Shown here piece after piece: positions 1 to 12,959 of a DNA stretch of 64,000 nt (position 1 is the stretch's first letter; each line of letters opens with the position of its first letter). Below the pieces are notes generated by a model. It did no database searches. It saw only the letters and a program-made list of their open reading frames with translations, and had not been told where the DNA came from. A program made the position numbers and the translations under genes. Origin of the DNA: Candidatus Saccharimonadota bacterium (GTDB lineage: Bacteria; Patescibacteriota; Saccharimonadia; Saccharimonadales; DTSZ01); assembly GCA_012965045.1 (NCBI GenBank), contig DTSZ01000001.1, positions 503,763 to 567,762 of the forward strand, written 5' to 3'.

Positions 1-3000
1 CCCGATCCAACTGTATCGAATTCAATGCCTCCTATATTACTGGCTCCTCCCGTTTTATTACCATCTATCTTAAGATCACGAACAGTAATATCACTGTTAC
101 CGCTAACTTGGTCGGAGTTTTCGATTATATTAAATCCGCTTGCGCTATTTCCGACTGTGATCACACTTCCAGTGCCTACTCCTGAAAGAGTAGTGTTGGA
201 AGGTACCGCGATTTGAGCATCAACGTCATAGGTACCAGCAAGTAGAAGAACCTTACCGCCACTTGCTGCAGTTAAGGCCGAATTAATTTCGTCTTCGTCA
301 CTGGTTCCGTCAGCTACGTAGTCAGCTGCATCTTTTTCGGCTTGGGTAGAGTCATTAGCGGCAACTATGGTGTATTCACCACTGTCTGCTTTCCATTTAC
401 CGTTAGCGTAAGTTAGTAGTTTGTCTGTTGTAGTGTCGAAGTAAACCATACCTTCGGTTGGGCTGGCTGGGCGAGATGCGGTGTTACCGCCGGTAATGGT
501 AAGACTATTGCCGGCACCAAGCACAACGTCGCCGTTGAAAGTACTTGTTCCACCGTCAGCTACTGTTAGCACTGCACTACCACCGTCTTGGACAATGAAT
601 GAACCTGTTCCAGTAATGTCTACAGTAAAGTTAGTTGCTTCACTAACAGTAAGGTCAATGTCTCCACCAGCATCGTCAGCCACAATGGTGTTGCCGCCGT
701 CGTAAGCTACTTGCAGAGTAACAGTAGAGGCAGTTAGGAAGGTAGAGTTACAACTTGCCAGTTGACCAGAGCTGTTTCGACACACCACTGCGTCGTTGTC
801 GGCTGCGGCTGCAGTGTAGCTTACTGTTCCGTTAACAGTAAGTGCACTGTTGGCTAGTTGTAATAGATCAGTATCGGCAGCGATTCCAATGTCGCCACCT
901 TCTACTTCTAGGTTGCCACTGAGTGCGGTAATTGCAGCAGTAATGTCTATTGTGCCGTTAGTGCTATTACTAATGACTTCGTCGTTTTCGAGAGTGATGT
1001 CTCCACCTTGAACGTCAAGTGCACCGGTGATGTCTACGTTCGCACCGAGGGTAATGTCGCCAGCTGGTTGGATTAGGTAGTCGCCGGTGGTTTGGTCTTG
1101 TATTTGACCGCCATAAATGGTGCCGGTGCCGCTATCGTTGATAGTCCAATCGTCGTCACCGTCACTATCCGAAACGTAGTTATCGGCAATGTAGTTGTTG
1201 TCTGAGCTAGCATTAAAAATATTAATGCCATAACAGTCAGTGTTACATTCAGTGTCTAATACACGGTTGCTAGTAATCTGGTTATTATCAGAGTTATTAA
1301 TATAGATTGCATTAAATCTGCTAGCTCCGCCGCTTACATTCGAAAGGTTGCCGGTGATGACGTTTGAATCACTGGTGTCGAGACGTATTGCTTCGTTTGT
1401 AGAGCTGTAAATACTGTTTCCAGATATAACGTTGAAGTCGTTGCTGCCAGCAAGATACATTCCACGGTTGCTACCATCTACGGTGTTGCTGCTGACGCTG
1501 TTGTTTTCTGAAGATGAGAAGTAGAGTCCATTACCCGTTACGTTTAACACCGTGTTGCCTGTGATAGTGTTGCTATCTGCATTAGCAAAATGCATTCCGT
1601 CTGTACTGTCAGCTACAGTGTTACCAGTAATAGTGTTGTTGTCAGAAGCAACGTAGAAACCTCGACTGCCACCTTCGGCATAGTTATCGGTAAAGGTGTT
1701 GCTTGTACTTGTAACAGTAACCGTATATTGGTACGTAGTGTTGTTTATAGAGGCGTTGTTCGTTATAGAGTTACTCACACTAGTGCTCGTTAGCGTAATA
1801 CCTTCAGCGTTATTAATAACTGTACTGCCCGACACACGACTGTTGTCGCTCGCAACAAGTTGGATACCGTTGTTCCTAAAGTCTTGTACGTGCACGTTAC
1901 TAATATTTGCCCCCAAACGACTACTAGCAAGATCTCCTACTCCGTTAAAATAAATACCACGTTGCGTCCCCACCGTATTCAAATCATCACGGCCATCGAG
2001 CTTTAGGTCACGGATAGTTACGCCAGTACCAGTTGTAGTGTCGCTGTTTTCAATTAGGTTGTCGGTGGCGTCTATGTCAGCTAGCTCAATGACTGTTCCA
2101 TTACCAACACCAGCCAAAGTAGTGTTGTTAGGTATAAGGATGGTTCCATCAGCTACGTAGGTACCAGCAAGTAGAAGAACCTTACCGCCACTTGCTGCAG
2201 TTAAGGCCGAATTAATTTCGTCTTCGTCACTGGTTCCGTCAGCTACGTAGTCAGCTGCATCTTTTTCGGCTTGGGTAGAGTCATTAGCGGCAACTATGGT
2301 GTATTCACCACTGTCTGCTTTCCATTTACCGTTAGCGTAAGTTAGTAGTTTGTCTGTTGTAGTGTCGAAGTAAACCATACCTTCGGTTGGGCTGGCTGGG
2401 CGAGATGCGGTGTTACCGCCGGTAATGGTAAGACTATTGCCGGCACCAAGCACAACGTCGCCGTTGAAAGTACTTGTTCCACCGTCAGCTACTGTTAGCA
2501 CTGCACTACCACCGTCTTGGACAATGAATGAACCTGTTCCAGTAATGTCTACAGTAAAGTTAGTTGCTTCACTAACAGTAAGGTCAATGTCTCCACCAGC
2601 ATCGTCAGCCACAATGGTGTTGCCGCCGTCGTAAGCACCCTGAAGGTTAAAGTTGGCAGTGCTTAGGAATGTAGAACTACAAGCCGCGAGTTGGTTAGAT
2701 GTGTTTCTACAGACCACGGAGTCGTTGTCGGCAGCGGCAAGAGTTGCTACCTGAACTGTGTCATTAAGGATAATTTCACCAGTACCATTAGCGACCACCG
2801 TTAGGTTCTCGTCGGTACCTGTAGTTATGTCCGTAACAACACCACTAATAGTCAATGAACCAGTGTCGAGTGTAAGGCTGTCTGCAGTCAGAGCATCTTG
2901 TATATCCACGTTGCCACCTGAGCTGTTGATAGTAAGATCTCCGTCGCTTGCGGTTGTAAGATCTGTGTAGTTGGCGGCTGAACCATCTGCGTCATTGTAA

Positions 3001-4616
3001 GTAAGACGCAAGTTACTGCCTGTAGCTGAATTTATTTCGACTTGGCTATCTGGGCCGTTAGTACCTATACCGACGCTTCCGCCGCCATCAATGACCAGCA
3101 CATCTGTAGTATCGGTTTGGTTGTAGACTCTAAATTTGCCGTTATTGTTTCCAAGCCTATACTCATCTCCTGCGGTGTCGGTAAATCTAATTTCTGGAAC
3201 GGTGCCAGAAAGATGAAGTAATTGCTGTGGGCTGGACGTCCCAATCCCTATCCTCTCATTAGTTGTATCTACATTTAAGATCGGTGTGCCGCCATCGGCA
3301 TCCAAGAACTGATAAGCCGTAGTTGAATCCGTTCCGTTCTGGAGCGTAAAGTTGTTGCCAGCGAAAGTCTTCGCCCCAGCAAAGGTTTGGGTGCCGGTTG
3401 AGACGAGTCCGGGGTAGGTTGCATCAGCCGTTTGCAGGAATAGTTCGTTCGCAGAAATAACGCCACCATTGGCATTCTTAGAAGCGCCATTTAAGGTACC
3501 AACTGCAGTAGCACCACTGCCCGCACCGTCAATGTTTGTGCCAACCCACACAGTTCCGTTCCAAATAAATGCTTGGCTGCGTTGACTGTTTATTGTTACG
3601 CCGTACATAGCAAAGCTTTCGGTACCGACGTTGTTAACATACACAACGCGACCACCTGTTGTGACGGTTGGATCTGGCAATGTTAGCGTTTGACCAGATG
3701 TAGTCTGATTAACATTTAGCGTACTGGCAATATCTACTGAATTTGCAGCCGTTTCTACATCGCCGCCACCGCTTACGTCGCTAATTGTGATCGCCGTAAA
3801 TAAGCTACTGCCAGCGTTGGTGAATTGGTTGCCTGCAGTTACCGACAGGTCGCCGTCAAACGTCGAATTACCAGTAACCGTTAGTACGCCCGCATTCGTA
3901 AGAGTAAGAATATCGCTACCGCCATTTTGCAGCTGAAGTAAATTACCAGTGTTAGTTTTGTTAATAAATATGCTGCTATTCGTAGTGTTGTCAGTTTGTG
4001 CGCTGCCTTGAGCCAGTTGAACGAAGTCTGTTGAATCTAAGTTGTCTAGCGTATCAGCGTTATCAGCTTGGAAGGCATACGGGCTAGCAGAGAATCTCAT
4101 GAATGGATCCATTTCGCCGTCGTAGCTGGCAGCACCACCACTGCCACCAATGTCGACAGTCAGCCACAAAGTATCTTCGGTGAAGTCGACGCCAGACAGT
4201 GACGTTAGTGATCCAAGTTGTACCGTAAAGTAACCATTTTCTACCCGAACAAGATTTCCGGTAGAGTGAGCCTCTGTCCATTCCAGTGTTTCATCGCCGC
4301 CGCCAAGATTACCGTCGCCGCCAGAATAGATTCTAAATCGAATGTGATAGTCGCCATCAGGAACAATTCCCTGCGCAGAGTTGCGTAAGCGACCCTGGAA
4401 GGTGAATTGTTCGTTAATGGCAGTTGCGGAGTGAGGGGCTAGTGCTACGAGAGCAGTCATTACAGAAAGAGCAACCAAAAGCACCCCTACACTGCCCAGG
4501 TAGCGGGCGCTTGCTACTGAGCAGTGTATGAATGCCTTAGTTTCTGAAAACGCAAAAACACTACCTTTAACCAAGGTAGTTAATGCATGTGCTAGTGATG
4601 AGAAAATTGTTCTCAT
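1..4616 (-). CDS. Giant secreted/surface protein, N-terminal >=1538 aa (3' end beyond left edge). Tail-fibre-like N-domain plus repeated Pectate_lyase_3/PbH1-type parallel beta-helix modules
   Basis: Absent from the supplied track because it has no stop inside the window. My hand translation of the reverse complement from ATG 4616 (GAGG just upstream) stays open to position 3. It starts MRTIFSSLAHALTT...VGVLLVALSVMTALVALAPHSATA (hydrophobic anchor/signal), then FTFQGRLRNSAQGIVPDGDYHIRFRIYSGG. ADGTSDEDEINSALTAASGGKVLLLAGTY follows, then beta-helix turns NNTITGNTVADS, SNTITGNTVLNV, NNSVSSNTVDGS, FNVISGNSIYSS, SNVITGNLSNV, NNQITSNRVLD. No track ORF occupies this minus frame. Confidence 0.8.
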   Translation of the reverse strand, partial: MRTIFSSLAHALTTLVKGSVFAFSETKAFIHCSVASARYLGSVGVLLVALSVMTALVALAPHSATAINEQFTFQGRLRNSAQGIVPDGDYHIRFRIYSGGDGNLGGGDETLEWTEAHSTGNLVRVENGYFTVQLGSLTSLSGVDFTEDTLWLTVDIGGSGGAASYDGEMDPFMRFSASPYAFQADNADTLDNLDSTDFVQLAQGSAQTDNTTNSSIFINKTNTGNLLQLQNGGSDILTLTNAGVLTVTGNSTFDGDLSVTAGNQFTNAGSSLFTAITISDVSGGGDVETAANSVDIASTLNVNQTTSGQTLTLPDPTVTTGGRVVYVNNVGTESFAMYGVTINSQRSQAFIWNGTVWVGTNIDGAGSGATAVGTLNGASKNANGGVISANELFLQTADATYPGLVSTGTQTFAGAKTFAGNNFTLQNGTDSTTAYQFLDADGGTPILNVDTTNERIGIGTSSPQQLLHLSGTVPEIRFTDTAGDEYRLGNNNGKFRVYNQTDTTDVLVIDGGGSVGIGTNGPDSQVEINSATGSNLRLTYNDADGSAANYTDLTTASDGDLTINSSGGNVDIQDALTADSLTLDTGSLTISGVVTDITTGTDENLTVVANGTGEIILNDTVQVATLAAADNDSVVCRNTSNQLAACSSTFLSTANFNLQGAYDGGNTIVADDAGGDIDLTVSEATNFTVDITGTGSFIVQDGGSAVLTVADGGTSTFNGDVVLGAGNSLTITGGNTASRPASPTEGMVYFDTTTDKLLTYANGKWKADSGEYTIVAANDSTQAEKDAADYVADGTSDEDEINSALTAASGGKVLLLAGTYVADGTILIPNNTTLAGVGNGTVIELADIDATDNLIENSDTTTGTGVTIRDLKLDGRDDLNTVGTQRGIYFNGVGDLASSRLGANISNVHVQDFRNNGIQLVASDNSRVSGSTVINNAEGITLTSTSVSNSITNNASINNTTYQYTVTVTSTSNTFTDNYAEGGSRGFYVASDNNTITGNTVADSTDGMHFANADSNTITGNTVLNVTGNGLYFSSSENNSVSSNTVDGSNRGMYLAGSNDFNVISGNSIYSSTNEAIRLDTSDSNVITGNLSNVSGGASRFNAIYINNSDNNQITSNRVLDTECNTDCYGINIFNASSDNNYIADNYVSDSDGDDDWTINDSGTGTIYGGQIQDQTTGDYLIQPAGDITLGANVDITGALDVQGGDITLENDEVISNSTNGTIDITAAITALSGNLEVEGGDIGIAADTDLLQLANSALTVNGTVSYTAAAADNDAVVCRNSSGQLASCNSTFLTASTVTLQVAYDGGNTIVADDAGGDIDLTVSEATNFTVDITGTGSFIVQDGGSAVLTVADGGTSTFNGDVVLGAGNSLTITGGNTASRPASPTEGMVYFDTTTDKLLTYANGKWKADSGEYTIVAANDSTQAEKDAADYVADGTSDEDEINSALTAASGGKVLLLAGTYDVDAQIAVPSNTTLSGVGTGSVITVGNSASGFNIIENSDQVSGNSDITVRDLKIDGNKTGGASNIGGIEFDTVGS
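229..707 (-). repeat. Intragenic repeat copy 1 (479 bp, identical to 2158-2636)
   Basis: Line-by-line comparison at an offset of 1929 bp. The shadow ORFs 481..705 and 2410..2634 give identical peptides. Flanks on both sides are homologous but clearly diverged. Confidence 0.85.
2158..2636 (-). repeat. Intragenic repeat copy 2 (479 bp, identical to 229-707)
   Basis: Same evidence as copy 1. Encodes ...LQxAYDGGNTIVADDAGGDIDLTVSEATNFTVDITGTGSFIVQDGG...RPASPTEGMVYFDTTTDKLLTYANGKWKADSGEYTIVAANDSTQAEKDAADYVADGTSDEDEINSALTAASGGKVLLLAGTY. Confidence 0.85.
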
Positions 4617-4675
4617 TAACCTCTTTTTACAAAAGACAGGTCAAATGAGAGCGCCCAAGGTATTATCTAAAATCT

Positions 4676-4715
4676 AAAAAAGACTACTTGGCTGGCAATA
4701 GCCAACCTCATAGTC
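4676..4715 (-). terminator. Rho-independent terminator after the PKD-protein gene and upstream of the giant gene
   Basis: On the minus strand: GACTA-TGAGG-TTGGCT-ATTGCC-AGCCAA-G-TAGTC followed by TTTTTT. Inner stem is 6 bp and outer stem is 5 bp. Confidence 0.6.
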
Positions 4716-4967
4716 TTTCCCCGAAATGATAACTCATGCGCGCCCTGCATGTGATACCTACTTTTTCTCTTTTTATTTTACTCCGCCTCAATCCGTAAAC
4801 TTTTTTTAGATTTTTGTTTATATCTTTATAAGTTTTTTATTTGGATATAAGGATGACATTATTTAAGCATATTCACTTTGGTAAAGCAATGACTTTATGC
4901 TTACTTTTCCACAGTTTGAATTTATATAGATCAAATGATTGATATCAACTTACTATAATAGTTACTT

Positions 4968-5945
4968 CTAAGCGTGTGACTGCTTGAATCCGCGGCTGCC
5001 GATTAGGTTGCCGCCATGACGTTGTTTGTGCTTGTCTGACCAGCGCTGGAAGGATCTACCGATAACAAACGCTACGAACACGCAGACGACAAGCGCGTAG
5101 ATTGGCCACAAGACGTACTGGTCACGTACCACAACATTGGCATTCGGGTCGGCCTCTTGGGTTATGCCACCTACTGCAGGGCCGTTAACAATAGTTAAAA
5201 CCTGCACAAAAGCCAATCGTCCATCTGCATCTGTCGCCTTTACAGTTACAGAATACGTGCCGGACTGATCATAGACATGAGTTGGATTGAATTCACCGCT
5301 ATCATCTAAGCTCAACAGGGTATCCTCGCTTCCGTCGCCCCAATCGATTGATATAGCGTACGGGGCAACACCGCCGCTTACTGATAACGGCCAGGTAATT
5401 TCGTCGCCGGGGTTTACACCCCGCGCACCAAAGTTAGATGTAATGACAAACGGCGATATAGTAGCGATATTTTGCCCGACATCAACACCACCATCTTGCG
5501 GTTGGTAGTTGACTATAACCGGAGCAGAATCTGGCCCCTGTTGGTTAAGAGCATCAAAGGTGCTGGCAATTATGGTATTTAATCCTGGCAGTAAGTCGAT
5601 TTGTAACTGGAAGGTACCATCTTCCAGACAAAGCACTGACCCAGCAAAGGCACCGTTACGACTGATTTGAATAATAGTCCCCGGTACACATTCACCACGA
5701 ACAGCTGTAGGAGTGGAGACAAGTACTTCTTGTTGAGAAGGTACATCAATAACTGCTGGAATATCTGGCGGCGGCCCTGGCACGGTGCCTGTTAAACCAA
5801 CTGATCCGCTTTGAGGATTTTCAACTGTCTGCGCGTTGACATTAGTGAGCGGAATAATAAAAACCCCGACAAACACTAATAGCACGAGTAGCATGTGAGC
5901 TAGCTCGTGCCATAGTTTTGTGTGTTTAGTGTATTCGTGTTGCAT
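4968..5945 (-). CDS. Membrane-anchored PKD-domain surface protein
   Basis: Track ORF of 325 aa. N-terminal hydrophobic segment MLLVLLVFVGVFIIPL, PKD-like module ISIDWGDGSEDT...HVYDQSGTYSVTVKATDADG, C-terminal TM (WPIYALVVCVFVAFVIG) plus a basic tail. Confidence 0.7.
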   Translation of the reverse strand: MQHEYTKHTKLWHELAHMLLVLLVFVGVFIIPLTNVNAQTVENPQSGSVGLTGTVPGPPPDIPAVIDVPSQQEVLVSTPTAVRGECVPGTIIQISRNGAFAGSVLCLEDGTFQLQIDLLPGLNTIIASTFDALNQQGPDSAPVIVNYQPQDGGVDVGQNIATISPFVITSNFGARGVNPGDEITWPLSVSGGVAPYAISIDWGDGSEDTLLSLDDSGEFNPTHVYDQSGTYSVTVKATDADGRLAFVQVLTIVNGPAVGGITQEADPNANVVVRDQYVLWPIYALVVCVFVAFVIGRSFQRWSDKHKQRHGGNLIGSRGFKQSHA

Positions 5946-7073: not shown

Positions 7074-8174
7074 TTAAAACGTGGCCGTAGCTACATATGT
7101 AAGCGTTGTTGAATATATACCCTTTGGCTGGTTTTCGGGAATATTAACAATGTAGCTGGCTGTGAAGGTTTTTCTGTCGCTTGGGATTGGGCTGACAGCA
7201 ACAGTATCACCAGATATGAACTTATATACATTGGGTGTGTTGTAGTTACTGGCAACAGTTGCCGTACCCGGGCCAGCTGGCTCTAAACCAACGACTGGTT
7301 GTGTGTTTGCGCGAAGGTTGAGCCCAAACTGCTTCGTGCCTGTTTGACTTGCCGTCGGGGACGCCATGTTTGTAATTGTATTATTTCCAGATGTCATTGT
7401 AGTGCCAAGGACAGAAACTGCATACCCAAACTCGGCATTGGTATAGGCTAAGAATTTTGAAGTGCCAGTTTTTGTGGTGTTACTTGATAACTCACCAAAA
7501 CTCAGCTGAAATCCTGTAGCGGTACCACAATCATTGGCTAGGATTGTCGTACCAACACAAAATGTCAAAAACGGCGGAACATACGCTTGAATGTTAAAGC
7601 GAGTATTAAGCGCGAAAGCTAATCCACCTTGGTCAACCACATTACCGGTGATGCGACCATCAGTACTATCATAGGTCCGTATTCGAACATAATGAGATCC
7701 CGCTGTATCTGGATTTATCAAGTTCCCAAAATCGAAACTGGTCGTTGCGACGGTCGTATTTTGGGCGGCTACTCTATTTACAACAATGTAGTTGTTGTCA
7801 GTATATGTACCGTTATACGTACTCGGGTGAACCACAAAACTATCAGCTATAGGCTGGTCTGCCTCGCCTGATTGGTCGTCTATTGAAGCATTAGTCACAT
7901 CGATACCGCTCGGCGCAGTACAAGGTTCTGAAGGTATTGGACTGTTTGAGCAATATTCAAATTCAATTGATCCTACATTCCCCCCAAGTTCAAGGTCGAA
8001 CGTATAATCGTGGTTTACAGCTAGCTGGCTCGGCGTCGATGAAGATAGCTCTATGGATCGATCACCAATATCAGCCGCTGTGACATGTTTTGCGAAATAC
8101 GGAAACGGCACACTTGAAATCAAGAGTGCCGTTATTCCGATACTTGCTAGTGTTTGTGCAAGTCTATGTCGCAT
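7074..8174 (-). CDS. Secreted surface protein, paralog family (CSNSPIPS motif, C-terminus ...TLTYVATATF)
   Basis: 366 aa with a signal peptide. Shares RSI-x-LS...EFEYCSNSPIPSEPCTAPSGIDV with the two 450-aa paralogs and FGLNLRANT with the 248-aa protein. Ends in an aromatic residue. Confidence 0.7.
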   Translation of the reverse strand: MRHRLAQTLASIGITALLISSVPFPYFAKHVTAADIGDRSIELSSSTPSQLAVNHDYTFDLELGGNVGSIEFEYCSNSPIPSEPCTAPSGIDVTNASIDDQSGEADQPIADSFVVHPSTYNGTYTDNNYIVVNRVAAQNTTVATTSFDFGNLINPDTAGSHYVRIRTYDSTDGRITGNVVDQGGLAFALNTRFNIQAYVPPFLTFCVGTTILANDCGTATGFQLSFGELSSNTTKTGTSKFLAYTNAEFGYAVSVLGTTMTSGNNTITNMASPTASQTGTKQFGLNLRANTQPVVGLEPAGPGTATVASNYNTPNVYKFISGDTVAVSPIPSDRKTFTASYIVNIPENQPKGIYSTTLTYVATATF

Positions 8175-8186
8175 TACTATTCAATC

Positions 8187-9536
8187 TTAGAAGCTTGAAG
8201 TAGCTATGTAAACAATTGAGGTGTTATACACACCAGTAGGTGTTGTAATTGCAGCCGTACCACCAAAGTCAATTACTAACATTTCGTCGTCTAACACTGT
8301 AGAGCTTGAAGCAATTGTGTCAGCTGTTAGGTCGTTAGCAACGAATGTGTATTGAGCAGGTGTATCGTATTCTGCGTCTTCAGCTAGGTTCGAAGTCGTA
8401 CCGTTGGTTACGTCAATTGATGAAATTGTCATACCAAAGTTTTCAGTACCAGCTACGATCGCTGCTTCTGTAGCACCAACTGCGTTAATACAGCCGTTCA
8501 CTTGCGAGGCGGCGCCGTCAGTACAGTCTGCACCATTCTTAGAAAGGTAGCCGTCGTTGGTGTCGTTTGCACCACCAACACCACCACCGCCGTCGTCGTT
8601 GACGTCTTGGCCAGCGTCGGCGAAGTAGCTAATAGTTGCACCATTAGCAGCGTTGGTTCTAATCATGGCATAGGCGTTACTGTCTTCGGCTGAAGCAGTG
8701 TTAACGCTTGTTGAATCTAAGACACCCATGTCAATGTCATTGCCGCTTATGTCATCACAGTCGTTTGTGGTCGCTGCGTCAGTATCACCGACACAGAACT
8801 CTAAGACTTCCTGAACTCGAGCTGTAATAGTTAGCGTGTCAACAGTACTCATTGCGATACCGCCGTCATCTTCGTAAGAAGACGTTAAGTCTTGTGCATC
8901 AGCATCATTGTCTGCGTACAAACGAGCATAGAATGAACCAAAGTTGTTGGCACCAGCGGTGTCACTTGGGTTAATAATGTCCGCAGTTGCATCAACAGGA
9001 GAAAGAGTTATACGTACATATCGTTCAGTTGAATAGTTTGCACTTGTTGAATGTTCAATTACAAGCGTTGTTCCGTCTGATCGAAGCGTGTCAGTTATAG
9101 CTTCTTCATCAAAACTCCAGTCAGCAGAGACATCAGTTGGAGATGCAAAACCAGAGTTGTCGTCCGTTTCAACAGTTAGGGTGACGTTGTCTGACACATC
9201 ACCGTCGTTGTCGGTGTCAAAGTCCGGTACATCTAAACCTTCGGTAGCAGTACAAGCGTCAGATGGAATTGGACTGTTAGAACAGAACTCAAGCGTATAT
9301 CCTTCAAAGTCAGCCACGGTCGTTGTGTCGCCCGGGTTGAAGTAAAACTCGTGAGTATAGGTAACTCCAACCGCACTAACGCGGCTATCTGAGATCGCGA
9401 TAGATCGTTGGTCTAATTGCGCTGCGTCAACGCGTTGAGCGCTGAGCATAAATGGTGCGAAGCTAGCAAAAACTAATGCAGCTATCTGCAACCACGCAGC
9501 AACAGACGAATTTAAATTAATATTGAAGTGTTTCAT
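8187..9536 (-). CDS. Secreted acidic surface protein, tandem duplicate copy 1 (C-terminus ...SIVYIATSSF)
   Basis: The track ORF starts at 9545 (MSVMKHF...). ATG 9536 (MKHFNINL) matches the start of copy 2. Signal peptide, EFCSNSPIPSDACTATEGLDV motif, very Asp/Thr/Ser-rich. Confidence 0.75.
   Translation of the reverse strand: MKHFNINLNSSVAAWLQIAALVFASFAPFMLSAQRVDAAQLDQRSIAISDSRVSAVGVTYTHEFYFNPGDTTTVADFEGYTLEFCSNSPIPSDACTATEGLDVPDFDTDNDGDVSDNVTLTVETDDNSGFASPTDVSADWSFDEEAITDTLRSDGTTLVIEHSTSANYSTERYVRITLSPVDATADIINPSDTAGANNFGSFYARLYADNDADAQDLTSSYEDDGGIAMSTVDTLTITARVQEVLEFCVGDTDAATTNDCDDISGNDIDMGVLDSTSVNTASAEDSNAYAMIRTNAANGATISYFADAGQDVNDDGGGGVGGANDTNDGYLSKNGADCTDGAASQVNGCINAVGATEAAIVAGTENFGMTISSIDVTNGTTSNLAEDAEYDTPAQYTFVANDLTADTIASSSTVLDDEMLVIDFGGTAAITTPTGVYNTSIVYIATSSF
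8254..9536 (-). repeat. Tandem duplication block, copy 1 (1283 bp, identical to 9772-11054)
   Basis: Offset 1518 bp. The encoded proteins are identical from MKHF to ...IDFGGTA. Shadow ORFs 8502..8693/10020..10211 and 9088..9345/10606..10863 are identical. Confidence 0.85.
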
Positions 9537-9646
9537 GACAGACATGTCTCCTTATTTGTTTTTGTTTTAGCTAGGGTACTATCTAATTTAACACAAGCAT
9601 TTCACTAATAACAACTATTTATCCACAGGTACAGTAGTGAAACAGA

Positions 9647-9673
9647 AAGAACGACCAGGTCTTGGTCGTTCTT
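9647..9673 (-). terminator. Hairpin terminator between the two duplicated genes
   Basis: On the minus strand: AAGAACGACCA-AGACC-TGGTCGTTCTT (11-bp perfect stem) followed by T-rich TCTGTTTC. Confidence 0.5.
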
Positions 9674-9704
9674 GTATCCGTTAGATGGAGGTGGATATTG
9701 AAAG

Positions 9705-11054
9705 CTAGAATACTGCGGTAGCAATATACACGATAGACGTATTGTATACGCCAGTCGGTGTAGTGATGTTTGCCGTACCACCAAAGTCAATTACTAACAT
9801 TTCGTCGTCTAACACTGTAGAGCTTGAAGCAATTGTGTCAGCTGTTAGGTCGTTAGCAACGAATGTGTATTGAGCAGGTGTATCGTATTCTGCGTCTTCA
9901 GCTAGGTTCGAAGTCGTACCGTTGGTTACGTCAATTGATGAAATTGTCATACCAAAGTTTTCAGTACCAGCTACGATCGCTGCTTCTGTAGCACCAACTG
10001 CGTTAATACAGCCGTTCACTTGCGAGGCGGCGCCGTCAGTACAGTCTGCACCATTCTTAGAAAGGTAGCCGTCGTTGGTGTCGTTTGCACCACCAACACC
10101 ACCACCGCCGTCGTCGTTGACGTCTTGGCCAGCGTCGGCGAAGTAGCTAATAGTTGCACCATTAGCAGCGTTGGTTCTAATCATGGCATAGGCGTTACTG
10201 TCTTCGGCTGAAGCAGTGTTAACGCTTGTTGAATCTAAGACACCCATGTCAATGTCATTGCCGCTTATGTCATCACAGTCGTTTGTGGTCGCTGCGTCAG
10301 TATCACCGACACAGAACTCTAAGACTTCCTGAACTCGAGCTGTAATAGTTAGCGTGTCAACAGTACTCATTGCGATACCGCCGTCATCTTCGTAAGAAGA
10401 CGTTAAGTCTTGTGCATCAGCATCATTGTCTGCGTACAAACGAGCATAGAATGAACCAAAGTTGTTGGCACCAGCGGTGTCACTTGGGTTAATAATGTCC
10501 GCAGTTGCATCAACAGGAGAAAGAGTTATACGTACATATCGTTCAGTTGAATAGTTTGCACTTGTTGAATGTTCAATTACAAGCGTTGTTCCGTCTGATC
10601 GAAGCGTGTCAGTTATAGCTTCTTCATCAAAACTCCAGTCAGCAGAGACATCAGTTGGAGATGCAAAACCAGAGTTGTCGTCCGTTTCAACAGTTAGGGT
10701 GACGTTGTCTGACACATCACCGTCGTTGTCGGTGTCAAAGTCCGGTACATCTAAACCTTCGGTAGCAGTACAAGCGTCAGATGGAATTGGACTGTTAGAA
10801 CAGAACTCAAGCGTATATCCTTCAAAGTCAGCCACGGTCGTTGTGTCGCCCGGGTTGAAGTAAAACTCGTGAGTATAGGTAACTCCAACCGCACTAACGC
10901 GGCTATCTGAGATCGCGATAGATCGTTGGTCTAATTGCGCTGCGTCAACGCGTTGAGCGCTGAGCATAAATGGTGCGAAGCTAGCAAAAACTAATGCAGC
11001 TATCTGCAACCACGCAGCAACAGACGAATTTAAATTAATATTGAAGTGTTTCAT
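9705..11054 (-). CDS. Secreted acidic surface protein, tandem duplicate copy 2 (C-terminus ...SIVYIATAVF)
   Basis: 449 aa. AGGAG lies 8 nt upstream of ATG 11054. Identical to copy 1 apart from the last ~21 codons. Confidence 0.8.
   Translation of the reverse strand: MKHFNINLNSSVAAWLQIAALVFASFAPFMLSAQRVDAAQLDQRSIAISDSRVSAVGVTYTHEFYFNPGDTTTVADFEGYTLEFCSNSPIPSDACTATEGLDVPDFDTDNDGDVSDNVTLTVETDDNSGFASPTDVSADWSFDEEAITDTLRSDGTTLVIEHSTSANYSTERYVRITLSPVDATADIINPSDTAGANNFGSFYARLYADNDADAQDLTSSYEDDGGIAMSTVDTLTITARVQEVLEFCVGDTDAATTNDCDDISGNDIDMGVLDSTSVNTASAEDSNAYAMIRTNAANGATISYFADAGQDVNDDGGGGVGGANDTNDGYLSKNGADCTDGAASQVNGCINAVGATEAAIVAGTENFGMTISSIDVTNGTTSNLAEDAEYDTPAQYTFVANDLTADTIASSSTVLDDEMLVIDFGGTANITTPTGVYNTSIVYIATAVF
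9772..11054 (-). repeat. Tandem duplication block, copy 2
   Basis: See 8254-9536. Confidence 0.85.
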
Positions 11055-11175
11055 TTTGAAACTCCTTAATTTTTGTTTTTATTTTTTAAACCCACGCCTC
11101 AAAGGCATTGTTTTTTTATTTTTGCCTACGTGTAGTTACTTTTTACCATAAGTGTTTTATAAAAAGCAAATTATT

Positions 11176-11922
11176 TTAATACGTAGCTGTGGCTACTAAA
11201 ATATGATCCATTGAAAATTCTCCACCTTCTGTTAATGGACCCGCGTTTGCAATATAGCTAATTGTAAAGTCTGTTTGCCCAGTTGATTCAGTTGATTCAG
11301 CGATGGTTTCTCCAACGTTGTATCTAAATTGGTTAGCCGTACCATAGCCAGCCGCAACGGTAGCAAAACTAAAACTGGCATCCGGAACCTGAGTAGGGTC
11401 AGCGCCGAAGGTTGTTGGGCTCGTATTAGCAACTAAGTTCATGCCGAACTGCTCGGTGCCCGTAGAAGATGGCCCTGTTGATGTCATTGGGTCAAGTGTG
11501 GCTGGGCCATTGGAAGGTGGTTGGCTAAGCGTTTGCACCACCACGCCGTCGGCATTATAAGCACCAACACTAAACGTTGCTGTGCCCGTACCAGTAGTAG
11601 ATGTATCAATAAGCCCCAATCCTACTTCGCCACCGTTGACTGTAAACAACAGTGTTGGCTCAGCGTCCGTCGTAAAGCCAGCCAATAAGTTATAGCTAGC
11701 AGAGCTCGATTCGCCAGCCCCAATATCACCAAGATTACCTTGCAAGTTGTAGCCGGAGGAGTTTGCGTCACTGGTGCCAGCCGGACCAATAAAAAACTCG
11801 CCAAGATTATAGCTATTAGAGCTTGGCGCCTGTGCCAAGACGCTATTAATCGAGTTTAATGCAACTAGTAAAGCAATAAAAACGTATCTGGAAACCCTAT
11901 TAAACATAAGAACATTGTGCAT
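11176..11922 (-). CDS. Secreted surface protein, short paralog (three S-x-YNL repeats, C-terminus ...ILVATATY)
   Basis: 248 aa with a signal peptide (FIALLVALNSINSVLAQA). Contains SNSYNLGEFFIG / SSGYNLQGNLGDIG / SASYNLLAGF. FGMNLVANTSPT resembles FGLNLRANTQP of 7074..8174. Ends in an aromatic residue. Confidence 0.7.
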   Translation of the reverse strand: MHNVLMFNRVSRYVFIALLVALNSINSVLAQAPSSNSYNLGEFFIGPAGTSDANSSGYNLQGNLGDIGAGESSSASYNLLAGFTTDAEPTLLFTVNGGEVGLGLIDTSTTGTGTATFSVGAYNADGVVVQTLSQPPSNGPATLDPMTSTGPSSTGTEQFGMNLVANTSPTTFGADPTQVPDASFSFATVAAGYGTANQFRYNVGETIAESTESTGQTDFTISYIANAGPLTEGGEFSMDHILVATATY

Positions 11923-12005
11923 TGAACTGTCGAATCAATCAACCTAACTTGCAAGCTAACAGGCATAAGCAGTATTATTAATGTAATCGAGGAGTATTGT
12001 AAGAG

Positions 12006-12959
12006 GTGGCGGAAGAAGAAACAAAAACAACTGATAATTCGAATGAGCCAACTGGCGAGCAAAAACCTGGCTTAGATTCGCAGGTAGCGCTCGATTCTTT
12101 TGATAAAAAGGAAGAAAAGAAAAAGAAGGGCTTTTTAAGTAACTTTAAAACCTTTAATCCGTTCTTTATAGCAATTGGCGGGATCTTTGTCGTTGTTTTA
12201 GTTGTACTAATTATTGTTTTTACTGGCAGTGAACCAGACACTTTTATAGGAGCAGACTTAAGCGAAGACGAACTAACCTCATTGATATCTGACAGCAGCG
12301 AAAATGAATCAACCGGCCAAGTTCTGCGAATTGGCCCAGCTACAGAATTTTCTCAAGACGTATCAGTGCTCCAAGATGTCGAAATCGTTGGTAACTTAGT
12401 TGTAGCAGGTGAAATCATTAGTGCAAATTCATCGCTGGCTGGACAAAACGCCGAAGACCCAACACAGGCTGGCGGCGACGACTTGCAAGTTGACGGCGAC
12501 GCACTATTTTCTGGAAACATCGCCACTCAAGGGTCATTAACAGTTAACGGTACACTTACTGTTAATAGCTCTATAACTGCTACATCAATTACAGCCACAA
12601 CCATAAATTCTACTGGCGACGCCACATTCTCGCGCCACATAGTGTCTAACGCCACGCTGGTTGTAGTTTCAACTGGATCTGCCGCAGGTTCTGGCGGAAC
12701 AACATCTGCTAGTGGAAACGACATTGCTGGTACGGTCACAATCAATACTGGTAGCGCCACAACAGCCGGCGTTTTAGCAAACATTGGCTTCCAGCAAGCC
12801 TATGGCAGCACGCCGAGCGTAGTTATTACTCCAGTCACCTCAGCAGCCGCCTTAACAGAGTATTTTGTAACCAGAACTACCACAGGATTTACTATCCAAA
12901 CAAACATTGCACCACCTATCGGCTCTACACTACAGTTTGATTACCATATTATTGAATAA
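12006..12959 (+). CDS. Membrane-anchored hypothetical protein (charged N-terminus, one TM, Thr/Ser/Gly-rich ectodomain)
   Basis: 317 aa with a GTG start and GAGGAG 10 nt upstream. TM segment FFIAIGGIFVVVLVVLIIVF. The C-terminal ~90 aa (DIAGTVTINTG...GFQQAYGSTPSVVITP...YFVTRTTTGFTIQT...LQFDYHIIE) looks like a small beta-sandwich/lectin-like domain (inference). Confidence 0.6.
   Translation: MAEEETKTTDNSNEPTGEQKPGLDSQVALDSFDKKEEKKKKGFLSNFKTFNPFFIAIGGIFVVVLVVLIIVFTGSEPDTFIGADLSEDELTSLISDSSENESTGQVLRIGPATEFSQDVSVLQDVEIVGNLVVAGEIISANSSLAGQNAEDPTQAGGDDLQVDGDALFSGNIATQGSLTVNGTLTVNSSITATSITATTINSTGDATFSRHIVSNATLVVVSTGSAAGSGGTTSASGNDIAGTVTINTGSATTAGVLANIGFQQAYGSTPSVVITPVTSAAALTEYFVTRTTTGFTIQTNIAPPIGSTLQFDYHIIE

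What the first reader, a model, noticed from the sequence alone, without database searches (positions are those of the whole stretch)
229..2636. Perfect 479-bp identity block inside two otherwise diverged 1929-bp modules of the giant gene
Segments 229-707 and 2158-2636 appear identical base for base. The sequence immediately to the left (100-228 versus 2029-2157) and right (708-900 versus 2637-2830) is homologous but heavily substituted. Sharp identity boundaries inside an older duplication point to recent intragenic gene conversion. Selection for sequence identity is the alternative. The conserved piece encodes the linker plus the start of the beta-helix, which may be the functionally constrained part or a recombination hotspot for module shuffling.
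Basis: seen in the sequence. Interest (0 to 1): 0.55.

Follow-up and report, generated by a model that had tools for sequence, protein, structure and literature searches.

The report
Gene-conversion tract in giant surface gene
Two old, diverged modules of a 3,045-residue surface-protein gene of a Saccharibacteria bacterium share a 479-base stretch that is identical to the letter; this is best explained by one module recently overwriting the other by recombination, a known process that relatives show at the same junction.

Summary
Window 229-707 and 2158-2636 are 479/479 identical, 1,929 bases apart, and the boundaries are sharp. The gene is on the minus strand. It starts at 4616 and runs off the left end of the window. 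The full 3,045-aa gene was recovered from the source scaffold (HIA91974.1, Candidatus Saccharibacteria).

The block encodes aa 661-820 and aa 1304-1463. This is the end of a fibrous linker, a small YFDT..GKW hairpin unit, and the cap and first rung of a right-handed beta-helix of the NosD/tailspike type.

Inside the block, synonymous differences are zero. In the flanks they are saturated (pS 0.66-0.9). The two helices are only 37% identical to each other, yet helix 1 is 66% identical to a helix in another species. So the modules are old and only the junction was homogenised recently. That is segmental intragenic gene conversion.

Four other assemblies break exactly at the block edges, so it is a genuine repeat. 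Identity of the interior rests on one assembly.

Five relatives show low-pS tracts at the same junction. All tracts end within about 15 bases of the same GTY codon.

This is a new example of a known process, of moderate interest.

The parts
1..4616 (-). 5' half (aa 1-1538) of a 3,045-aa surface-protein gene. It starts at ATG 4616 and runs off the left end of the window.
   Evidence: Only minus frame 3 is open from 4643 down to 1. Translation. The full gene is L001 11330-20467, whose DNA is identical to the window. It is HIA91974.1, Candidatus Saccharibacteria bacterium.
4437..4499 (-). N-terminal hydrophobic segment (aa 40-60, LGSVGVLLVALSVMTALVALA). Inferred signal peptide or membrane anchor.
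   Evidence: Read from the translation. No predictor was run, so this is inference.
2637..2939 (-). Linker 1 (aa 560-660), with a Cys-Cys loop at C636..C646. It is the diverged homologue of linker 2. The 102 bases next to the block (2637-2738) are still detectable by blastn.
   Evidence: Protein alignment of aa 560-902 with aa 1203-1546. Over 40 codons pS is 0.69 and aa identity 0.62. blastn.
2158..2636 (-). Identity block, copy 1 (module 1, codons 661-819 plus 2 bases of codon 820).
   Evidence: 479/479 identical to 229-707. Contigs of three other assemblies end 30, 91 and 127 bases into this copy.
229..707 (-). Identity block, copy 2 (module 2, codons 1304-1462 plus 2 bases of codon 1463).
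   Evidence: An independent NCBI assembly contig (DQSK01000005.1) starts 95 bases before the end of this copy and is identical downstream for 5,356 bases.
2289..2375 (-). YFDTTT..LLTY.NGKW beta-hairpin unit inside block copy 1 (aa 748-776). The same unit lies at 360-446 in copy 2.
   Evidence: AlphaFold strands at model residues 149-177. Weak DUF2793 match, E = 0.065-0.17, below the cut-off. This is the best conserved part of the block among relatives.
1110..2183 (-). Right-handed parallel beta-helix 1 (aa 812-1169). Its cap helices and first rung lie inside block copy 1.
   Evidence: Pfam NosD 80 bits and Beta_helix 46 bits, both above their cut-offs. The AlphaFold model has pLDDT above 90 over the helix. 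Foldseek matches AlgE4/AlgE6 epimerase, Det7 and Sf6 tailspikes, PfbA and RbmB. PHROGs gives tail spike families.
708..1049 (-). Linker 2 (aa 1190-1303), with a Cys-Cys loop at C1279..C1289.
3..228 (-). Start of beta-helix 2 after the block (aa 1464-1538), cut by the window edge. It is strongly diverged from helix 1.
   Evidence: Over the 40 codons after the block pS is 0.67 and aa identity 0.48. The helices are 37% identical over 120 aa.

Best explanation
The 479-bp block is a recent gene-conversion tract: a non-reciprocal homologous-recombination event that copied the junction segment of one module over the matching segment of the other.

The gene encodes a 3,045-aa surface protein of a Saccharibacteria bacterium. 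It has an N-terminal anchor and a fibrous stalk. Two modules follow, each built as linker, junction, then tailspike-like beta-helix.

Shown here:
- The modules are ancient paralogues. Their helices are more similar to helices in other species than to each other.
- The junction is identical down to synonymous sites.
- The block edges lie inside structural units: the 5' edge in a low-confidence linker and the 3' edge in the first helix rung. That is what a recombination tract would give, not a domain.
- Relatives show independent tracts of different ages at the same junction, all stopping where the helix sequence begins to diverge.

Inferred:
- The junction is kept similar by purifying selection on the protein. 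It therefore retains enough DNA homology for recombination to start there.
- The tract cannot extend into the helix, either because homology collapses there or because homogenised helices are selected against.
- The two perfect direct repeats, 643 codons apart and in frame, are now substrates for in-frame deletion or swapping of a helix module.
For: - Identity is 479/479, with sharp edges.
- pS is 0 in the block and 0.66-0.9 in both flanks. Flank aa identity is 0.31-0.62.
- Incongruence: junction identity is about 1.0 within the gene and at most 0.74 to any other genome. Helix identity is 0.37 within the gene, but helix 1 reaches 0.66 with L005.
- Family-wide, the nearest neighbour of a junction lies in the same genome for 26 of 59 modules. 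For helices it is 9 of 59.
- There is no nucleotide-level constraint in the family. Junction pairs in most relatives have aa identity 0.7-0.98 but pS 0.5-0.8.
- Independent low-pS tracts occur at the same place in L075 (pS 0.13/0/0.17), L079 (0.31/0.14/0.11), L076 (0.28/0.17), L018 (0.28) and L065/L055 (0.19-0.35).
- Every mapped tract (window gene, L075, L079, L076, L018, L077) ends 0-15 nt after the GTY codon, while the 5' ends range from -80 to about -520 nt.
- The repeat is real. Contigs of four other assemblies stop 30, 91, 127 and 95 nt inside the block edges. The 127-nt and 30-nt overhangs fit the k of 127 in the megahit contig name and, from my recollection, k = 31 for Logan.
- The reading frame is continuous through both copies for 3,045 codons.
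Against: - Perfect identity of the block interior rests on one scaffold (ERZ23486381). A short-read assembler that resolves a repeat can place the same consensus twice and hide a few differences between copies.
- The number of repeats of the middle piece (helix 1 plus linker 2) cannot be verified without reads.
- Donor and recipient could not be determined, so non-reciprocity is assumed, not shown.
- The relatives with low pS were picked because their junction aa identity was high, so the frequency of such events is not estimated.
- No recombination gene was looked for, so the enzymology is inferred.
Confidence: 0.8

Rival explanations
1. Assembly artefact. Either the true copies are similar but not identical and one consensus was written into both places, or the tandem two-module arrangement is itself a mis-join of strain variants.
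For: Every short-read assembly other than the 929-kb scaffold breaks at the block, so the scaffold had to resolve a 479-bp repeat with reads shorter than the repeat. Two metagenome scans for the block interior and for the piece between the copies found no independent contig.
Against: The contig breaks fall exactly at the two block edges with k-sized overhangs. That requires at least the first 127 and the last 95 bases to be shared by two contexts in several data sets. The piece between the copies is unique sequence that enters and leaves the block. It keeps one open frame of 3,045 codons. It also has the same linker-junction-helix order as multi-module genes assembled in many other genomes. 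L075 shows a near-identical tract at the same place, with a 247-nt perfect core, in an unrelated 209-kb contig.
Confidence: 0.12
2. Selection alone keeps the two segments identical, either on the protein or on the DNA/RNA sequence (an embedded RNA, an antisense gene or a binding site), with no recent recombination.
For: The C-terminal two thirds of the block are the best conserved part of the module across species. Junction pN is low in all relatives.
Against: Protein-level selection cannot remove synonymous differences, and the flanks and most relatives are saturated at synonymous sites. Rfam finds no match in 1-5000. There is no convincing antisense or alternative-frame ORF. The first 55 codons of the block are variable among species yet identical here.
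Confidence: 0.03
3. The block is half of a template/variable repeat pair of a diversity-generating retroelement, or of another programmed variation system.
For: Diversity-generating retroelements are, from my own knowledge, common in this group of bacteria and target surface proteins. The gene is a surface protein with repeats.
Against: The copies have no mismatch at all. The flank mismatches show no adenine bias: 7 of 23 and 8 of 31 fall at A in module 1, with a similar share in module 2. Both copies are in frame within one coding sequence. At 479 bp the block is much longer than typical template repeats (own knowledge). No reverse transcriptase was looked for.
Confidence: 0.01

Closest known systems
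Segmental gene conversion and concerted evolution between paralogous surface-protein sequences in bacteria. An example is Brucella omp2a/omp2b (PMC7050475, which cites the review by Santoyo and Romero 2005).
   Same: Non-reciprocal homologous recombination copies a segment between diverged paralogous sequences. The result is a mosaic of identical and diverged stretches, with copies ranging from 82 to 100% identical.
   Different: Here the two partners are modules inside one open reading frame, in direct orientation and 1,929 bp apart. The tract is confined to a domain junction while the functional beta-helix domains stay diverged. The host is a Saccharibacteria bacterium, for which a search found no report of gene conversion.
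Modular receptor-binding proteins of phages: a conserved N-terminal anchor followed by an exchangeable beta-helix depolymerase or tailspike domain (PMC6872550).
   Same: A conserved segment immediately upstream of a right-handed beta-helix marks the point where sequence similarity stops abruptly. The helix resembles the Det7 and Sf6 tailspikes and phi29 gp12 and PHROGs tail spike families.
   Different: The protein is cellular and membrane-anchored, and it carries two helices in tandem on one chain. No relative of the junction was found in IMG/VR viral contigs. What is shown here is homogenisation of the junction, not exchange of helices. No sequence match to any solved structure was found.
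Right-handed parallel beta-helix carbohydrate-active or carbohydrate-binding domains (Pfam NosD PF05048, Beta_helix PF13229, Pectate_lyase_3 PF12708). Structural neighbours include the AlgE4/AlgE6 A-modules, the RbmB lyase and the PfbA adhesin.
   Same: Pfam scores are above the cut-offs. The predicted fold is confident. Foldseek gives E = 3e-10 to 1e-6.
   Different: Sequence identity to solved structures is only 10-20%. Catalytic residues were not examined, so enzyme versus pure binding domain remains open.

Membership tests
Segmental (intragenic) gene conversion / concerted evolution | A tract of much higher identity than the homologous flanks, with sharp boundaries | tested here: met
   479/479 identical against about 64% in the adjacent flanks and 45-51% further out.
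Segmental (intragenic) gene conversion / concerted evolution | Synonymous sites are homogenised in the tract while the flanks are saturated | tested here: met
   pS is 0 in 159 codons and 0.66-0.9 in the flanks.
Segmental (intragenic) gene conversion / concerted evolution | Phylogenetic incongruence: the tract groups by genome, the flanks group by orthology | tested here: met
   Junction identity is 1.0 within the gene and at most 0.74 elsewhere. Helix identity is 0.37 within the gene, and 0.66 between helix 1 and L005.
Segmental (intragenic) gene conversion / concerted evolution | Identifiable donor and recipient (non-reciprocal transfer) | tested here: inconclusive
   Block similarity to junctions of other species that precede helix-1-like (70-73%) or helix-2-like (67-71%) helices does not discriminate.
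Segmental (intragenic) gene conversion / concerted evolution | Both copies are present and identical in the DNA molecule, not only in an assembly | tested here: inconclusive
   The block edges are confirmed as repeat boundaries by four other assemblies. The interior and the copy number need reads, which are not available here.
Right-handed parallel beta-helix domain (NosD / Beta_helix / pectate-lyase-like) | Profile match above the curated cut-off, and a beta-helix fold | tested here: met
   NosD 80-100 bits and Beta_helix 46-140 bits. AlphaFold pLDDT is above 90 over aa 812-1169. Foldseek probability is 1.00 to beta-helix enzymes and tailspikes.
Right-handed parallel beta-helix domain (NosD / Beta_helix / pectate-lyase-like) | Catalytic residues of a lyase, hydrolase or epimerase | not tested
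   No active-site comparison was made.
Diversity-generating retroelement target | Template and variable repeats that differ at adenines, with a nearby reverse transcriptase | tested here: not met
   There are no differences in the block and no adenine bias in the flank mismatches. A reverse transcriptase was not searched for.
Phage receptor-binding protein (tailspike) | Encoded in a viral genome, or homologous to viral junction or anchor domains | tested here: not met
   No relative of the junction in IMG/VR. Only the helix matches PHROGs tail spike families, weakly (E = 3e-9). The gene lies near ATP synthase genes on the bacterial chromosome.
Tandem-repeat contingency locus (copy-number phase variation) | Head-to-tail identical units whose number varies between cells or strains | not testable with these tools
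   There are only two interspersed copies 1,929 bp apart. Population variation needs reads.

The most novel reading that the evidence does not exclude
The junction may be more than an occasional conversion tract. It could be a maintained recombination cassette for the giant multi-module surface proteins of Saccharibacteria. Repeated homogenisation would keep perfect homology just upstream of each beta-helix. Helix domains, the likely host-surface glycan binding or cleaving units, could then be deleted, duplicated or swapped in frame within and between genes. That would give these episymbionts a way to shift host range or vary antigens, in the manner of the modular exchange seen in phage receptor-binding proteins.
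Probability: 0.15. Interest if true: 0.65.

Novelty: new member of a known kind. Interest (0 to 1): 0.33.

Why it matters
Saccharibacteria live attached to host bacteria, and how they recognise the host surface is poorly understood. This gene family encodes huge proteins that carry one to six tailspike-like beta-helices, which makes it a plausible host-contact apparatus.

The junction before each helix is repeatedly homogenised while the helices stay diverged. This marks where such genes recombine and predicts in-frame loss, gain or exchange of helix modules.

There is also a practical point. These junction repeats break short-read assemblies: four contigs of this organism end at the block, and several relatives' contigs begin or end inside the junction. 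Such genes are therefore under-represented and truncated in genomes assembled from metagenomes.

As a mechanism, gene conversion between repeats is textbook, so the finding extends known biology and does not change it.

Tried and rejected
- Two exact-match scans of JGI metagenome contigs, one for the block centre and one for the piece between the copies, found nothing. No independent contig spans the repeat.
- A second word-indexed protein search with helix 1 returned no fragments of the same gene from other assemblies.
- The donor direction could not be inferred from which helix type follows the most block-like junctions in other species.
- Rfam on window 1-5000 gave no hit. The other five reading frames of the block hold nothing convincing. 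An embedded RNA or second gene was therefore rejected.
- A diversity-generating retroelement was rejected because there is no adenine bias.
- A sequence search of the PDB gave no match.
- A scan of viral contigs found no relative, so a direct phage origin of the junction is not supported.
- I considered whether contig ends falling inside the junction in relatives (L010, L035, L042, L047, L049, L062, L066) are more frequent than chance. A rough hand estimate expects about 4 and I observed 7. The excess lies mainly in contigs longer than 10 kb. This is suggestive only and is not used as evidence.
- A recent whole-module duplication was rejected because flank synonymous sites are saturated.
- Unequal crossing-over was rejected because it would duplicate helix 1, which is not seen.
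Full report
**Observation**

Window 229-707 and 2158-2636 are identical at all 479 positions, at an offset of 1929. Identity at that offset falls to 0.6-0.74 in the adjacent 50-base windows and to background (0.2-0.4) beyond about 100 bases. blastn joins 167-809 with 2096-2738 at 91.8% over 646 columns and finds no other copy of the block in the window. The codons touching the block already differ: CTT/CTG, CAG/CAA and GGT/GTA before it, and TAC/TAT, GTA/GAC and GCT/GTT at its end.

**Context**

Only minus-strand frame 3 is open across 1-4643. The gene starts at ATG 4616 (MRTIFSS...) and leaves the window at its left end.

An exact look-up of the neighbouring 325-aa gene recovered the source scaffold, ENA ERZ23486381 scaffold_1 of 929,678 bp. 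It matches window 1-5945 without a mismatch and contains the whole gene, L001 11330-20467, 3,045 aa. The protein is HIA91974.1, a hypothetical protein of a Candidatus Saccharibacteria bacterium. The samples are hydrothermal-vent metagenomes.

The block encodes aa 661-820 (copy 1, window 2158-2636) and aa 1304-1463 (copy 2, window 229-707). Only these two copies exist in the 21-kb locus.

**Anatomy**

The protein has an N-terminal hydrophobic segment, then a long Gly/Thr/Asn-rich region, then two modules. Protein alignment shows homology from aa 560-902 to aa 1203-1546 and on through both helices. Each module has three parts:

- a linker with a Cys-Cys loop (VVCRN.S.QLA.C.STFL);
- the junction;
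- a right-handed parallel beta-helix (Pfam NosD and Beta_helix above their cut-offs).

Module 2 has a shorter helix with several indels. So 1929 bp is the spacing of the blocks and not a common module length. A third linker with the Cys loop follows at about aa 1790-1880, without a further junction.

An AlphaFold model of aa 600-1200 has mean pLDDT 79.6. It gives:

- no confident structure for aa 600-704;
- short strands at aa 748-776 (the YFDTTT..LLTY.NGKW motif);
- two cap helices at aa 782-807;
- a beta-helix with pLDDT above 90 from aa 812 to about 1169.

The block therefore starts inside the unmodelled linker and ends inside the first rung of the helix. Its edges are not domain edges.

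Foldseek places the helix with the AlgE4/AlgE6 mannuronan epimerase A-modules, an alginate epimerase/lyase, the Det7 and Sf6 tailspikes, the PfbA adhesin, the RbmB lyase and phi29 gp12. PHROGs gives tail spike families. No solved structure matches by sequence.

**Conversion or selection?**

Codon-aligned comparison of the two modules:

| Region | pS | pN | aa identity |
|---|---|---|---|
| Block, 159 complete codons | 0 | 0 | 1.0 |
| 40 codons upstream | 0.69 | 0.25 | 0.62 |
| 40 codons downstream | 0.67 | 0.39 | 0.48 |
| Further out | 0.80-0.85 | - | 0.34-0.45 |

Purifying selection on the protein cannot erase synonymous differences. The identity therefore reflects recent copying.

The modules themselves are old. 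Over the first 120 helix residues the two helices are 37% identical, yet helix 1 is 66% identical to a helix in another species (L005). The junctions are identical to each other and at most 74% identical to any other genome. This incongruence between junction and helix is the signature of gene conversion.

A constraint at the nucleotide level is unlikely for four reasons:

- Rfam finds nothing in 1-5000.
- The other reading frames hold nothing convincing.
- In most relatives the junction pairs keep their amino acids (identity 0.7-0.98, pN 0.01-0.2) while pS is 0.5-0.8.
- tblastn hits in other species usually cover only block residues 52-159, so the first third of the block is not even well conserved as protein.

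A diversity-generating retroelement is excluded by the absence of mismatches in the block and of adenine bias in the flanks.

**Is the repeat real?**

Four other assemblies of the same organism break at the block.

- The JGI contig Mariner_1000006 ends 91 bases into copy 1.
- A megahit k127 contig ends 127 bases into copy 1.
- A Logan contig ends 30 bases into copy 1.
- The NCBI contig DQSK01000005.1 starts 95 bases before the end of copy 2 and is then identical for 5,356 bases.

Overhangs of about the k-mer length are what de Bruijn assemblers leave at a repeat. The 127-base overhang equals the k in the megahit contig name, and 30 fits k-1 for Logan if its k is 31, as I recall. So both outer edges of the block are true repeat boundaries in several data sets.

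Two things cannot be verified without reads: the letter-perfect interior, and the single copy of the middle piece. Both rest on one scaffold. Two metagenome scans for spanning contigs found nothing.

**Relatives**

A profile scan of one genome per species returned 69 loci, almost all Saccharibacteria/Saccharimonadales. Many carry 2-4 junction-plus-helix modules per gene.

An exhaustive HMMER search with the block found 500 representative proteins (234 at E <= 1e-10). Many are 1,500-5,171 aa long with 2-6 matches.

Across 59 modules that have a partner in the same genome, the nearest junction lies in the same genome for 26. The nearest helix does so for only 9. In 61 within-protein module pairs the median identity is 0.66 for the junction and 0.40 for the helix.

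I fetched DNA for the five pairs with the highest junction identity. pS is given for the bins -160..-105, -105..-50 and -50..0 codons before the block end:

| Locus | Junction pS | Flank pS |
|---|---|---|
| L075 | 0.13 / 0 / 0.17 | about 0.7 |
| L079 | 0.31 / 0.14 / 0.11 | 0.69-0.8 |
| L076 | (0.83) / 0.28 / 0.17 | 0.79-0.88 |
| L077 | (0.65) / 0.40 / 0.49 | 0.61-0.92 |
| L078 | saturated | saturated |

L075 has a 247-nt perfect core. L018, L065 and L055 also show reduced junction pS of 0.19-0.35.

Mismatch maps show that every one of these tracts ends within 0-15 nt after the GTY codon that closes the block. The 5' ends vary: about -80, -195, -318, -340, -479 (this window) and about -520 nt.

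These cases were chosen for high identity, so the rate of such events is not estimated. They are nevertheless independent events at the same place. Other mosaic identities occur in the family. One is a perfect 519-nt repeat at the 5' ends of two separate paralogous genes in L043.

**Mechanism**

Shown:

- the duplication is old;
- the junction alone was homogenised recently;
- the same junction has been homogenised independently in other lineages, with a shared 3' limit.

Inferred:

- Purifying selection keeps the junction protein, and hence its DNA, similar enough for homologous recombination to start. In relatives the junction is 76-86% identical at DNA level while the flanks are undetectable by blastn.
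- The tract stops where helix homology collapses, or where homogenised helices would be selected against.
- The enzymology, RecA-type recombination or break repair using the other module as template, is assumed.
- The two 479-bp direct repeats are 643 codons apart. Recombination between them would delete helix 1 plus linker 2 in frame. Recombination with junctions of paralogous genes could swap helices. The wide range of module numbers in the family is compatible with this but does not prove it.

**Comparison with known systems**

The process matches segmental gene conversion between bacterial surface-protein paralogues such as Brucella omp2a/omp2b (PMC7050475). It differs in acting between modules of one reading frame and in being confined to a domain junction.

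The architecture recalls phage receptor-binding proteins, where a conserved N-terminal part precedes an exchangeable beta-helix depolymerase (PMC6872550). But the gene is chromosomal, near ATP synthase genes, and no viral relative of the junction was found. A literature search found no report of gene conversion in Saccharibacteria.

**Verdict**

This is a new example of a known process, with a modest added point: the stalk-to-helix junction of these giant proteins is a recurrent conversion tract. Interest is moderate to low. The main open issue is read-level confirmation of the repeat interior and copy number.

Noticed in passing
window 8187-9545 and 9705-11054 (minus strand); repeat 8200-9568 vs 9718-11085: Two tandem genes (452 and 449 aa by ORF call; no Pfam hit on record; N-terminal hydrophobic segment, Asp/Thr-rich) are 97.9% identical over 1,372 bases, including sequence upstream of the start codons. 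The proteins differ only near the C-terminus. This is a second recent duplication or conversion, a few kb from the giant gene.
   Followed up: partly
L002 end (13400), L003 end (5871), L004 end (5677), L074 start: Four independent assemblies of this organism break at the edges of the 479-bp block, with overhangs of 91, 127, 30 and 95 bases. As a result the giant gene is truncated to 670-702 aa or to its last 1,614 aa in those records.
   Followed up: yes
L043 3706-4224 and 7730-8248: A perfect 519-nt direct repeat in a related Saccharibacteria genome covers the 5' ends of two separate paralogous genes (3676-5562 and 7685-12028). This is conversion between genes, not within one.
   Followed up: partly
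L075 6804-6967 and 9671-9834: A 164-nt stretch is 99.4% identical between the third module region of a 2,228-aa relative and the next gene downstream. Mosaic identity therefore also crosses gene borders.
   Followed up: no
window 2679-2711 and 750-782 (minus strand); also aa 1862-1876 of the full protein, outside the window: A short Cys-Cys loop motif (VVCRN.S.QLA.C.STFL; third copy LLCLNAAGQIDSC) recurs three times in the stalk, each time about 25 residues before a junction or a domain change. Its role is unknown.
   Followed up: no
L010, L035, L042, L047, L049, L062, L066 (contig ends): Contigs of several other Saccharibacteria genomes start or stop inside the junction-equivalent segment. 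This suggests near-identical junction repeats break those assemblies too, which would bias any survey towards diverged junctions. A rough estimate gives 7 observed against about 4 expected, which is not conclusive.
   Followed up: partly
window 4620-4967: The intergenic region upstream of the giant gene has markedly low G+C (0.36 in the 4501-5000 window, against about 0.46-0.50 inside the gene). It is presumably the promoter region. The gene upstream (4968-5945) has a weak PKD-domain match, and the gene after the giant gene (outside the window) is a 2,456-aa Kelch/beta-propeller protein. Together they look like a cluster of surface proteins.
   Followed up: no
L046 (junction end at 10306) and L071 (junction end at 10312): Two different contigs of one genome bin carry helix segments that are 100% identical over 120 aa, with junctions 86% identical. 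This is the reverse pattern to the window gene. It may be a recent whole-helix duplication or a binning or assembly duplicate.
   Followed up: no
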